DNA of 64,000 bases, from positions 129,890,001 through 129,954,000 of the forward strand of contig OZ024742.1 in NCBI GenBank assembly GCA_964016885.1, read 5' to 3'. The translations under genes were made by a program, and so were the position numbers. Below the pieces are notes generated by a model, which saw nothing but the letters and a program-made list of their open reading frames with translations, was not told where the DNA came from and made no database searches. The stretch's first letter is position 1, and every line of letters begins with the position of its first letter. Below, one piece after another: positions 27,537 through 42,954 of this stretch. This DNA comes from Eledone cirrhosa. Lineage: Eukaryota.

Positions 27537-27581
27537 AGTCATAGTCCTTTCGTCACACATTCTGTGACCTCTTCAGTGACT
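27537..27581 (-). ncRNA. Minimal type I hammerhead ribozyme motif
   Basis: AGUCA-CUGAAGA-G-GUCACA-gaaug-UGUGAC-GAAA-GGAC-UA-UGACU: stems I and II are perfect, the core is intact, stem III is minimal. Confidence 0.85.
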
Positions 27582-27811
27582 GGGGATTCCTTTCTTTGTT
27601 TCTGTGCCTTTCCTTTCTTCTATCCTACGCCATTTTGTTTCTGTGTGTGTGTTGTGTGCTCAGTTTGCGCATGCGCCACATCCGGGTGTCTGTGTGTGTT
27701 TGTGTTCATTTATCTATTTGTTTATTTATTTATTTATTTATTGTTGGTTGGTTGTTTGTTCTATGTGTGTGTGTGTTTTCATTTTGTCCTGTGTGTGTTT
27801 TCATTTTGTCC

Positions 27812-28270
27812 TTAATTGTAAGTTGTGATGTTGCTGTTCCACTCATATTTTCTATTTAATTTTGGTTGTAATTCTTTTATGCTTACTGCCTCTGTAATTT
27901 GCCTAAACATTGCGTCTTTTCTGTGTGTGGATTCTATTTTTATTTCTATGTTCTCTAATCTACCCCTGTGTTCTATCTTAGCATGTTGGTAGAGCACAGA
28001 TGATTCTTTATTATCTTGGAGGTCTCGCCAGTGTTCATTTATTCGTTCCCCTATACTACGAGCTGTCTCACCTATGTACACTATATTTTTGTTTCTACAT
28101 TGTCCTTCAGTACATCTTATGCTATACACTACATTTCTAGTTTTACAGTTAATATGGGGGCTTATTTTACAGGTTATACATTTCTTATCTATACATGAGG
28201 GTCTTTGGAACGGGTATGTCTTGCTAATAAGTGTTTTTTTAATAAGTGTTTTTACGGAGGTACCTCCGTA
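27812..28270 (-). pseudogene. Penelope C-terminal Cys-rich linker and GIY-YIG endonuclease (RT missing)
   Basis: Open frame YGGTSVKTL..CIDKKCITC..NCKTRNVVYSIRC..C..VYIGETARSIGERINEH..LYQH..EH..RQITEA..PKLNRKYEW. Confidence 0.9.
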
Positions 28271-28277
28271 AATATAT

Positions 28278-38200: not shown

Positions 38201-41200
38201 TATATATATGTATATATATATATATGTATATATATATATGTATATATATATATATATATATATATATATATGTATATATATATATATATATATATATATG
38301 TATATATATATATATGTATATATATATATATGTATATATATATGTATATATATATGTATATATATATATATGTATATATGTATAGATATATATATGTATA
38401 TATATGTATATATGTATAGATATATATATGTATAGATATGTATATATATATATATGTATATATATATATATATATATGTATAGATATATATATGTATATA
38501 TATATATATATATATGTATAGATATATATATGTATATATATATATATGTATAGATATATATATGTATATATATATATATATATATATATATATATATATA
38601 TATATGTATATATATATATATGTATATATATATATATGTATATGTATATATATATATATGTATATATATATATATGTATATATATATATATGTATATATA
38701 TATGTATATGTATATATATGTATATGTATATGTGTATATATATGTATATATATATGTATATATATATATGTATATATATATGTATATATATATGTATATA
38801 TATATGTATATATATATGTATATATATATGTATATATATATATGTATATATATATGTATATATATATATATATATATATATGTATATATATATATATATG
38901 TATATATATATGTATATATATATATATGTATATATATGTATATATGTATATATGTATATATATGTATATATATATATATATATATGTATATATATATATA
39001 TATATATATATATATATGTATATATATATATATATATGTATATATATATATGTATATATATATATATATATGTATATATATATATGTATATATATATATA
39101 TATATGTATATATATATATATATGTATATATATATGTATATATATGTATATATATATGTATATATATGTATATATATATGTATATACATATGTATATATG
39201 TATATATATATGTATATATGTATATATATATGTATATGTATATGTATATATATATGTATATATATATGTATATATGTATATATGTATATATATATGTATA
39301 TATATATGTATATATGTATATATATATATATATATGTATATATATATATATATATATATATGTATATATATATATATATGTATATATATATATATATATA
39401 TATGTATATATATATATATATGTATATATATATATATATATGTATATATATATATATATATATATGTATATATGTATATATATATATATATATATATGTA
39501 TATATATATATATGTGTATATATATATATATGTGTATATATATGTATATATATATGTATATATATATGTATATATATATGTATATATATATATATATATA
39601 TGTATATATATATATATATATATATATGTATATATATATATATATATATATATATGTATATATATATATGTATATGTATATATATATATATATATATGTA
39701 TATATATATATATATATGTATATATATATATATATATATATATATATATATATATATGTATATATATATATATGTATATATATATATGTATATATATATA
39801 TATGTATATATATATATATATATATATATGTATATATATATATATATATATATATGTATATATATATATATATATATGTATATATATATATATATATATA
39901 TATATATATATGTATATGTATATATATATATGTATATGTATATATATATATGTATATGTATATATATATATATATATATGTATATGTATATGTATATGTA
40001 TATATATATGTATATGTATATGTATATGTATATATATATATATATATATATATATATGTATATGTATATGTATATATATATATATATGTATATATATATA
40101 TATGTATATATATATATATGTATATATATATGTATATGTATATATATGTATATGTATATGTGTATATATATGTATATATATATGTATATATATATATGTA
40201 TATATATATGTATATATATATGTATATATATATGTATATATATATGTATATATATATGTATATATATATGTATATATATATATGTATATATATATGTATA
40301 TATATATATATATATATATATGTATATATATATATATATATGTATATATATATGTATATATATATATATGTATATATATGTATATATGTATATATGTATA
40401 TATATGTATATATATATATATATATGTATATATATATATATATATATATATATATGTATATATATATATATATATATGTATATATATATGTATATATATA
40501 TATATATATATGTATATATATATATGTATATATATATATATATATGTATATATATATGTATATATATGTATATATATATGTATATATATGTATATATATA
40601 TGTATATACATATGTATATATGTATATATATATGTATATATGTATATATATATGTATATGTATATGTATATATATATGTATATATATATGTATATATGTA
40701 TATATGTATATATATATGTATATATATATGTATATATGTATATATATATATATATATGTATATATATATATATATATATATGTATATATATATATATATG
40801 TATATATATATATATATATATATGTATATATATATATATATGTATATATATATATATATATATGTATATATATATATATATATATATGTATATATGTATA
40901 TATATATATATATATATATGTATATATATATATATGTGTATATATATATATATGTGTATATATATGTATATATATATGTATATATATATGTATATATATA
41001 TGTATATATATATATATATATATGTATATATATATATATATATATATATGTATATATATATATATATATATATATATGTATATATATATATGTATATGTA
41101 TATATATATATATATATATGTATATATATATATATATATATATATATATATATATATATATATATATATATATATATATATATATATATATATGTATATA

Positions 41201-42616
41201 TATATATATGTATATATATATATGTATATATATATATATGTATATATATATATATATATATATATGTATATATATATATATATATATATATGTATATATA
41301 TATATATATATATGTATATATATATATATATATATATATTTATATATGTATATGTATATATATATATGTATATGTATATATATATATGTATATGTATATA
41401 TATGTATATGTATATGTATATATATATGTATATGTATATGTATATGTATATATATATATATATATATATATATATGTATATGTATATGTATATATATATA
41501 TATATATATATATATATATATATATATATATATGTATATATATATATATATATATATATATATATATATATATATATATATATATATATATATATATATG
41601 TATATATATATATATATATATGTATATATATATATATATATATATGTATATATATATATGTATATATATATATGTATATATATATATGTATATATATATA
41701 TGTATTATATATATATATATATATATGTATATATATATATGTATATATATATGTATATATATATATGTATATATATATGTATATATATATATGTATATAT
41801 ATATATATATATATATATATATATGTATATATATATATGTATATATATATGTATATATATATATGTATATATATATATGTATATATATATATGTATATAT
41901 ATATATGTATATATATATATGTATATATATATATGTATATATATATATATATATATATATATATAATATATATATATATGTATATATATATATATATATA
42001 TTATATATATATATATATATATATATATATATATATGTATATATATATATATATATATATATATGTATATATATATATATATATATATATATATATATAT
42101 ATATATATATATATATATATATATATATCTGTATATATATATATATATATATATATATATATATATATATATATATATATATATATATATATATATATAT
42201 ATATATATCTGTATGTATATATATATATATATATATATATATATATATATATATATATATATATATATATGTGTATATATATATATATATATATATATAT
42301 ATATATGTGTATATATATATATATATATATATATATATATATATATATATATATATATATATGTATATATATATATAATGTATATGTATATATATATATA
42401 TATATATGTATATATATATATATATGTATATATATATATATATATATATATGTATATATATATATAATGTATATGTATATATATATATATATGTATATAT
42501 ATATGTATATATGTATATATATATGTATATATGTATATATGTATATGTATATATGTATATATGTATATGTATATGTATATATATATATGTATATCGTATA
42601 TATATGTATATATATG

Positions 42617-42954
42617 TCTATCCTACGCCATTTTGTTTGACAAACAAAATGGCGTAGGATAGAAGAAAGGAAAGGCACAGAAACGAAGAAAGAAATCCCC
42701 AGTCACTGAAGAGGTCACAGAGTGTGTGACGAAAGAACTATGACTATATATATATAAACAACTATCTGGTTGTGGGACCAAGCAACCAACCAGAAATTTA
42801 TAAATTTATAAATATATAATAAATTAAATTGAAGTGAAAGCAACTGGTGCGTATGTTTCTTATTGGCAACATGACCCTCCCAAAGTATAACAATATCGGT
42901 TTCAACACACGATTTCAGATAAAGAATCTTGCTAAACAAATTCAGAAACGAAAT
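42617..42954 (+). mobile_element. Second solo Penelope pLTR (338 bp)
   Basis: About 5 substitutions relative to 34906-35243, with the same palindrome and the same 5' junction. Confidence 0.88.
42701..42745 (+). ncRNA. Minimal type I hammerhead ribozyme motif
   Basis: Identical to 34990-35034. Predicted cleavage after A42740. Confidence 0.85.

What the first reader, a model, noticed from the sequence alone, without database searches (positions are those of the whole stretch)
27537..42745. Four minimal type I hammerhead ribozyme motifs in (TA)n-anchored pseudo-LTRs, one intact in the host pre-mRNA sense
Seen: three intact cores (27537-27581 on -, 34990-35034 and 42701-42745 on +) and one G5C mutant (28278-28322 on -). 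Among the intact copies, changes fall only in loops (gaaug/gagug, GGAC/GAAC). Known: PLE pLTRs carry minimal hammerheads with tiny stem III that often need dimerisation. Inference: the minus copy could cut the 45-kb IQCG intron co-transcriptionally, and the two + copies could release a 7.7-kb, mostly (UA)n, retrozyme-like RNA. Stem III here is not palindromic, so how it would be activated is open.
Basis: partly seen in the sequence, partly recalled or inferred. Interest (0 to 1): 0.75.

Follow-up and report, generated by a model that had tools for sequence, protein, structure and literature searches.

The report
Penelope retrotransposon stubs carrying hammerheads
The four hammerhead-ribozyme motifs are real, but they are the leftover ends of a very abundant Penelope-type jumping gene that landed in TA repeats inside a long intron, a known arrangement that likely has no effect on the host gene.

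Summary
Three intact minimal type I hammerheads and one G5C copy are at the stated places. They are ends (pLTRs) of one young Penelope-like element (PLE) family: 16,475 exact copies of the ribozyme 22-mer genome-wide, with intact ~4.1-kb parents (telomerase-like RT plus C-terminal GIY-YIG). The motif matches the published PLE minimal hammerhead. The minus copy does lie sense in a 45.4-kb intron of an IQ-motif gene, but nothing shows that it cuts: 76 of 100 sampled insertions were copied through the cut site and only 1 ends at it. The 7.7-kb "retrozyme" is not supported: both plus copies descend from one insertion inside an expanded TA satellite. Stem III is an imperfect palindrome, so the usual dimer route is open, and the G5C copy could be the substrate rather than a control. 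Side results: 28 of 28 informative head-to-head pairs join one long and one short 3' end (this scan noted the same in other DNA of this genome), and the parent RT has a conserved ~70-residue fingers insertion that is not reported for C-terminal-endonuclease PLEs in the papers I could search. No RNA evidence was available.

The parts
27311..28272 (-). 5'-truncated young PLE copy: short fold-back head, GIY-YIG end of the ORF, 3' pLTR with hammerhead, long tail, then (TA)n
   Evidence: 98.2% over 943 nt to the full-length unit in L043
27537..27581 (-). Copy 1: intact minimal type I hammerhead (loop III GA), predicted cut after 27542; sense in host intron
27311..27396 (-). Tail: first ~86 nt of the PLE ORF, ending in AT microhomology with the (TA)n target (long 3' end class)
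27815..28254 (-). C-terminal GIY-YIG endonuclease fragment of the PLE ORF
   Evidence: PF01541 E 6.2e-05, 23.7 bits vs cutoff 22.6; 90-100% identical matches in 150 of 150 scored places
28251..28272 (.). 22-nt palindrome at the 5' truncation point of copy 1's element
   Evidence: sequence; ORF context
28278..28322 (-). Copy 2: hammerhead of an older subfamily with private G5C; predicted cut site after 28283; its own tail is missing
28339..28413 (.). Inverted (head-to-head) arm of copy 2, running into the assembly gap
28414..28613 (.). Assembly gap (200 N); may hide further pLTR sequence
   Evidence: comparison with contig C23
30516..33768 (-). Unrelated young APE-RT LINE inserted in the TA satellite
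   Evidence: 1017-aa frame with RVT_1 and Exo_endo_phos; 40 of 40 scored places ~100% identical
34907..35243 (+). Copy 3 stub: 46-nt hairpin head, hammerhead 34990-35034 (loop III AA), long tail
35244..42617 (.). TA/TATG satellite with higher-order repeats, 7,374 nt, 93% A+T, 7 C
42618..42954 (+). Copy 4 stub: same 5' junction as copy 3, 5 mismatches in 337 nt, hammerhead 42701-42745
168..45553 (-). Host intron (45,386 nt) of an IQ-motif gene, probably IQCG/DRC9 (name recalled)

Best explanation
The four motifs are the hammerhead-bearing ends of one abundant Penelope-like retrotransposon family, left in TA repeats by truncated insertions and, for the plus pair, by a likely later duplication of the satellite, and they likely stay uncut and do nothing to the host gene. 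In the parent element the ribozyme sits ~150 nt upstream of a ~1,230-codon RT-GIY-YIG frame (shown). The protein likely cuts (TA)n and starts reverse transcription at one of two fixed points inside the ORF start, about +26 and +86 (ends shown, mechanism inferred). Copying usually stops early, often with a fold-back or a second, inverted arm (shown). The ribozyme is probably kept by selection in the parent line and would work only as a dimer through the imperfect stem III palindrome, probably with help from the element's protein (inferred from other PLEs); the RNA that was copied into the genome was mostly uncut (shown for the sample).
For: Copy 1 is contiguous with a GIY-YIG fragment and 98.2% identical to a full-length unit. 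Five of 9 fetched long-ORF loci show hammerhead-ORF-hammerhead on one strand at 4.07-4.29 kb spacing; a tandem with the AA loop has 4,423-bp spacing. The predicted RT fold (pLDDT 90) has only telomerase RTs in its top 14 VIA rows, best Z 15.1, rmsd 4.0, 378 aligned. Exact counts: ribozyme 22-mer 16,475, ORF-start 24-mer 28,038, reversed controls 0. Of the first 100 tail matches on contig C1, 92 are followed by (AT)n, 50 end in the short class and 49 in the long class; 76 run through the cut site and 1 ends within 5 nt of it. Architecture (extra base after A9, G10.1-C11.1, long stem II, short stem I, tiny stem III) is that of Cervera and De la Pena 2014 (PMC4209133). Frangieh 2024 (PMC11167929): internal RT starts, protein-assisted ribozyme, uncut RNA the main substrate. 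Subfamily changes spare the 11 core bases.
Against: No transcript or cleavage data exist here, so 'stays uncut in the intron' is inference. The 100-copy sample is the first 19 Mb of one contig, anchored on an exact 24-mer, so it is not random. Read-through shows what was copied, not what happens to other transcripts; 24 of 100 ends lie downstream of the cut and trimming after cleavage cannot be excluded for some. Core conservation is modest: Fisher p 0.019 and 0.10 in 20 and 22 copies kept of 29 and 41, with non-independent flank variants; p about 0.04 for the placement of four subfamily changes. Folding energies ignore Mg, tertiary contacts and proteins.
Confidence: 0.86

Rival explanations
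1. The minus-strand pair cuts the host intron as a cis double hammerhead. Copy 1's intact core would cut at copy 2's site (after 28283), while copy 2's G5C core could not cut copy 1.
For: Both copies are in the pre-mRNA sense, 741 nt apart. All pairs of the nested dimer are Watson-Crick-possible, including four stem III pairs. Dimers of PLE hammerheads cleave, slowly (PMC4209133; review PMC6765202).
Against: The dimer fold is predicted 14.1 kcal/mol above the best fold, with its cross pairs at probability 0.0001 or less. Published dimer activity is low. Splicing went on when an intron was cut by a hammerhead in mammalian reporters (as summarised in PMC2995048, passages). About one exact copy per 180 kb on both strands makes intronic sense copies commonplace.
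Confidence: 0.08
2. The two plus copies bound a 7.7-kb retrozyme-like RNA that is cut out, circularised and mobilised.
For: Two intact same-strand hammerheads 7,711 nt apart; one PLE pLTR pair has carried foreign DNA in rotifers (PMC3846280, passages).
Against: Copies 3 and 4 share the same hairpin head, 5' junction and adjacent satellite pattern with each other and with a copy on contig C23, so they derive from one insertion. The spacer is 93% A+T satellite with internal higher-order repeats. Animal retrozymes are 150-450-bp tandem repeats (PMC7229834, passages). The AA loop gives the weaker stem III duplex (+2.4 vs -1.7 kcal/mol). The unit is antisense to the host gene and no promoter was shown.
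Confidence: 0.03
3. Part of the arrangement is an assembly artefact: the plus pair or the C23 twin are alleles or reads joined wrongly through near-identical satellite and LINE sequence.
For: Gaps lie next to the block in both places; the LINE is 99.9% identical between the window and C23.
Against: Copies 3, 4 and C23 differ pairwise at 3-5 of 337 bases and copy 4's wider flanks differ; the satellite has a coherent higher-order pattern. This would not change what the motifs are.
Confidence: 0.12

Closest known systems
[quoted passage not shown]
   Same: CUGANGA and GAAA core, one unpaired base before G10.1, G10.1-C11.1, enlarged stem II, 4-5-bp stem I, tiny stem III, location in pLTRs, mostly solo truncated copies, opposite-strand pairs 100-700 bp apart
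   Different: Loop III is GA or AA, so stem III is an imperfect rather than perfect palindrome; copy number (over 16,000 exact 22-mers) is above the 2,000-9,000 quoted there; sequence is homogeneous
Poseidon PLE of Anolis (PAc; Frangieh et al. 2024, PMC11167929; parts 1-2 of 4 read)
   Same: C-terminal GIY-YIG, AT-rich targets, two RT start points inside the ORF start giving a tail, hammerhead not needed for insertion
   Different: Here the two ends are 60 nt apart and end in AT microhomology with the target, the hammerhead lies ~150 nt upstream of the ATG rather than over it, and the endonuclease has a CX4CX2C linker
Neptune / Nematis / Hydra C-terminal-endonuclease PLE clades (Craig et al. 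2021, PMC8557442; passages, sections 11-12, supplement part 54 and term searches)
   Same: RT then GIY-YIG, cysteine linker, microsatellite (TA)n targeting, partial tandems, inverted 5' copies, one-sided tail, hammerhead in pLTR
   Different: Motif A to motif B' distance is 128-135 aa against about 60-63 for Penelope, Neptune and Nematis rows and 118 for human TERT (my hand count on their Fig. S1); linker spacing looks Nematis-like by eye; clade not settled
Non-LTR retrozymes of animals (Cervera and De la Pena 2020, PMC7229834, passages; Li et al. 2026 bioRxiv 10.64898/2026.07.22.740005, part 1 and passages)
   Same: Type I hammerhead, PLE connection, frequent intronic location
   Different: Retrozymes are short tandem units with a hammerhead in each; here the stubs are solo pLTR ends and the spacer is satellite

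Membership tests
Type I hammerhead, PLE minimal form | Core C3-U4-G5-A6-N7-G8-A9, G12-A13-A14-A15.1, U16.1-H17 in type I order | tested here: met
   3 of 4 copies; 61 of 70 sampled genomic copies
Type I hammerhead, PLE minimal form | Extra base between A9 and G10.1; G10.1-C11.1; long stem II; short stem I | tested here: met
   definition in PMC4209133
Type I hammerhead, PLE minimal form | Palindromic 15.2-16.2 and loop 3 allowing a dimer | tested here: inconclusive
   Four of six positions pair; central GA or AA mismatches; duplex -1.7 or +2.4 kcal/mol
Type I hammerhead, PLE minimal form | Self-cleavage after H17 | not testable with these tools
   No RNA run was listed; bench assay needed
Endonuclease-positive Penelope-like element | Single ORF with telomerase-like RT | tested here: met
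   1,229-aa ORF; top 14 fold matches are TERTs; Pfam RVT_1 in 3 of 15 aligned members, none for the parent itself
Endonuclease-positive Penelope-like element | GIY-YIG endonuclease with CCHH, C-terminal | tested here: met
   PF01541 above cutoff; Cys/His columns seen in alignment
Endonuclease-positive Penelope-like element | pLTRs from partial tandems, inverted 5' copies, one-sided tail | tested here: met
Neptune or Nematis clade | CX2-5CxxC linker before GIY-YIG | tested here: met
   CX4CX2C in the parent; like motif in homologues
Neptune or Nematis clade | No insertion in the RT fingers | tested here: not met
   128-135 aa between motifs A and B' in 39 of 46 proteins, motifs not found in 7; 120-156 in 66 of 67 measurable among 149 more
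Neptune or Nematis clade | RT phylogeny groups with the clade | not tested
   No reference set of these clades was in hand as sequences
Hydra clade | CCHH absent, CxCX5C linker, DKT, element under 3 kb | tested here: not met
   CCHH-type residues present, CX4CX2C, DKS, unit over 4 kb
Naiad / Chlamys | N-terminal endonuclease | tested here: not met
   Endonuclease follows RT (33 of 34 measurable homologues)
Non-LTR retrozyme | Short (150-450 bp) tandem units, each with a hammerhead | tested here: not met
   7,711-nt spacing, satellite spacer
Non-LTR retrozyme | Abundant circular RNA | not testable with these tools
   No RNA run listed

The most novel reading that the evidence does not exclude
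Probability: 0.35. Interest if true: 0.55.

Novelty: new member of a known kind. Interest (0 to 1): 0.24.

Why it matters
As reported, little: hammerheads in PLE ends are known and this locus is four of more than 16,000 copies. The family is useful as a test bed. It is young, has intact parents, and is numerous enough to ask two open questions with genome data alone: whether PLE hammerheads cut in vivo (strand bias in introns), and how inverted PLE ends arise (the strict long-short pairing). The fingers insertion in its RT, if the lineage is indeed undescribed, bears on how often the telomerase-type insertion was gained or lost among PLEs.

Tried and rejected
Rfam: no hammerhead family among listed matches; the microRNA hits are AT repeats and hairpins. 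RNA evidence: no RNA holder listed among 6 runs; this says nothing on expression. A search for other hammerhead families with a different stem II and a GNNC stem III gave 14 matches against 21 in the control, so no cross-family covariation could be measured. Pfam and PDB sequence searches missed the parent RT. The idea that copy 2 + endonuclease fragment + copy 1 is a 741-nt mobile unit was rejected: none of the 11 other loci examined has that junction, the two ends belong to different subfamilies, and 23 copy-2-like loci continue into the normal tail. The idea that the AA loop marks only non-autonomous stubs was rejected: a tandem with a 1,329-codon frame has it. The idea that insertions begin at the ribozyme cut was rejected (1 of 100). 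The repeat finder was swamped by TA arrays. Lunse et al. 2016 on dimer cleavage was not held; I know it only through the review PMC6765202. Literature blanks: 'octopus' + 'hammerhead ribozyme', 'Penelope-like' + 'insertion in fingers' + 'GIY-YIG', clade names from 2021 on, and motif strings in the Craig supplement (long runs are cut in the held text) showed no description of this family; Repbase and subscription papers were not searchable. Supplements of the 2026 bioRxiv preprint and of PMC4209133 were not seen and may list related motifs.
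Full report
Observation. A generic type I hammerhead descriptor finds three motifs in the 64-kb window, at the three stated places; 0 of 100 shuffles reach three, mean 0.09. Each has a 5-bp stem I, CUGAAGA, one extra G, a 6-bp stem II, GAAA, G-(G/A)A-C, UA. The fourth copy has G5C. Rfam shows no hammerhead among the matches listed (150 of 280; 43 of 43). The host intron is real: minus-strand exons at 45554-45655 and from 167, with GT-AG ends, 45,386 nt apart. 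The gene has an IQ motif (just under cutoff); the name IQCG is recalled.

What the motifs belong to. Copy 1 is continuous with a GIY-YIG fragment. That fragment has 36,795 first-look candidates in the genome, and all 150 scored places are 90-100% identical. Nine long-frame loci were fetched; five show hammerhead, ORF, hammerhead on one strand 4.07-4.29 kb apart, and several have inverted arms. The ORF in L043 is 1,229 aa. Its predicted fold matches telomerase RTs best. The window's 27304-28238 is 98.2% identical to the end of this unit. The closest named homologue is from Octopus vulgaris, 68% identical, so the host is probably an octopus. Exact pattern counts are 16,475 for the ribozyme 5' half and 28,038 for the ORF start, with reversed controls at 0; the GA and AA loop forms of the younger subfamily number 4,155 and 5,979. 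This is an abundant, recently active Penelope-like family.

The four copies. Copy 1 is the 3' pLTR of a 5'-truncated insertion with a 22-nt fold-back at its head. Copy 2 belongs to an older subfamily (918 candidates, 40 scored); none of 23 other loci that matched, of 24 fetched, has G5C, and they continue into the normal tail, which copy 2 lacks. The younger insertion probably landed in the short AT run behind copy 2's ribozyme. Copies 3 and 4 are 337-nt stubs with the same hairpin head and junction, 5 mismatches apart; a third on contig C23 differs by 3 and 4 and shares copy 3's satellite pattern on both sides. The satellite between them has higher-order repeats (read by eye). They are therefore descendants of one insertion.

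How the family inserts. I took the first 100 exact matches of the ORF-start 24-mer on contig C1. 50 end in a short class (47 exactly at ORF +26), 49 in a long class (43 at +85 to +87), 1 continues; both points end in AT microhomology, and 92 of 100 are followed by (AT)n. Of 29 head-to-head pairs, 28 have one long and one short arm. Two internal RT starts and a one-sided tail are described (PMC11167929, parts 1-2; PMC3846280, passages; PMC8557442, passages). The strict pairing suggests that each end of a cut primes its own copy; this is inference. I saw it before looking up earlier notes; note e1-9877229 reports the same for this genome.

Does the ribozyme cut? 71 of the 100 ends carry a hammerhead, with the core intact in 61 of 70 ungapped ones. 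76 of 100 extend past the cut site; 1 ends within 5 nt of it. The copied RNA was thus mostly uncut, as for the Anolis element, where the ribozyme needs the protein and is dispensable for insertion. There is modest sign of selection in the parent line: subfamily changes fall in loop II, loop III, H17 and the last stem I pair, none in the 11 core bases (p about 0.04). Contigs from 4 runs of 3 organisms show the same sites plus two minor ones, one of them a stem III base in a single contig. Core versus upstream flank was 1 of 220 vs 31 of 960 and 1 of 242 vs 21 of 1,056, in 42 of 70 copies that passed a no-gap filter; the flank counts include shared variants.

Stem III. A two-base loop cannot close in a monomer. 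In a dimer AG(G/A)ACU gives four Watson-Crick pairs around tandem GA or AA mismatches, predicted at -1.7 and +2.4 kcal/mol. The route known for PLE hammerheads is therefore open, if weak; published dimers cleave slowly (PMC4209133). By the geometry of a double hammerhead (established knowledge), the core of one copy cuts the other's site, so in the pre-mRNA copy 1 would cut copy 2, and the G5C copy is a possible substrate. That fold is predicted 14.1 kcal/mol above the best fold, and stem I is mostly unformed in copy 1's context. A hammerhead cut in an intron did not stop splicing in mammalian reporters, though a faster ribozyme did (PMC2995048, passages). A host effect is unlikely but untested.

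The 7.7-kb reading. The spacer is 7,374 nt of satellite, 93% A+T, with 7 C. Animal retrozymes are 150-450-bp tandem units (PMC7229834, passages), and in Xenopus 42-44% of their copies lie in introns (bioRxiv 10.64898/2026.07.22.740005, passages). Nothing here resembles such a unit.

Comparison and novelty. The ribozyme is the PLE minimal hammerhead of Cervera and De la Pena 2014, feature for feature except the imperfect palindrome. The element works like Neptune/Nematis-type PLEs (C-terminal endonuclease, cysteine linker, microsatellite target), but I do not file it in either: its RT has 128-135 aa between motifs A and B' in 39 of 46 proteins and 120-156 in 66 of 67 measurable among 149 more, against about 60-63 in those clades and 118 in human TERT by my count on Craig 2021 Fig. 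S1. That paper treats the insertion as absent from canonical C-terminal-endonuclease PLEs. I found no description of this family, but Repbase and closed journals were not searched and no tree was built. PLEs are recorded in octopus without mention of ribozymes (PMC13282606, passages).

Verdict. Observation confirmed; PLE origin supported; intron cutting unlikely; retrozyme not supported. New member of a known kind, interest 0.24. The value lies in the parent family, not in this locus.

Noticed in passing
L043:3285-6971 (P0001) and homologues P0002-P0195: The parent RT and its homologues have 128-135 residues between motif A and motif B', about 70 more than canonical PLEs and more than human TERT by my hand count, yet the endonuclease is C-terminal. 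The insert is confidently modelled as short helices.
   Followed up: partly
G000:C1:0.2-19 Mb sample (L053-L082, L108-L162): 28 of 29 head-to-head pairs within 5 kb join one long (+86) and one short (+26) 3' end; the other pair has an arm that continues into the ORF. Solo ends split 22 short, 20 long.
   Followed up: yes
window 28614-33768 and L052/L177 (contig C23): A young APE-RT LINE sits in the satellite; its C23 twin (99.9%, slightly 5'-shortened) is followed on its 3' side by about 4 kb of the same satellite containing a copy-3-like hammerhead stub. Likely a LINE 3' transduction, or gene conversion or mis-assembly.
   Followed up: partly
window 30516 end of LINE; L179-L198: All 20 loci of this LINE end in the same short junction followed by TA-rich repeats, suggesting a second (TA)n-associated family.
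   Followed up: partly
pLTR, about 55 nt upstream of the hammerhead (window 27630-27641 region): An upstream segment is predicted to pair with the cleavage-site strand and block stem I; the hairpin head of copies 3 and 4 removes this block in the prediction (stem I probability 0.05 to about 0.9). 12 of 100 5' ends fall 90-110 nt upstream of the cut.
   Followed up: partly
L001-L030: Many of the best matches to copy 3 are near-perfect palindromes with the same apex, carrying two hammerheads on opposite strands about 120 nt apart; the query selects for this shape.
   Followed up: partly
window 47067-48616 and 61833-64000: Minisatellites of 41 nt (38 copies) and 48 nt (45 copies).
   Followed up: no
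window 1315-4517, 6783-8479, 49268-54426: Several RTE-like and restriction-endonuclease-type LINE fragments with long open frames in the same intron and beyond (class names recalled).
   Followed up: no
P0045: A database protein named dynein regulatory complex subunit 6-like (Octopus vulgaris) begins with about 150 residues of this PLE RT, probably a gene-model fusion.
   Followed up: no
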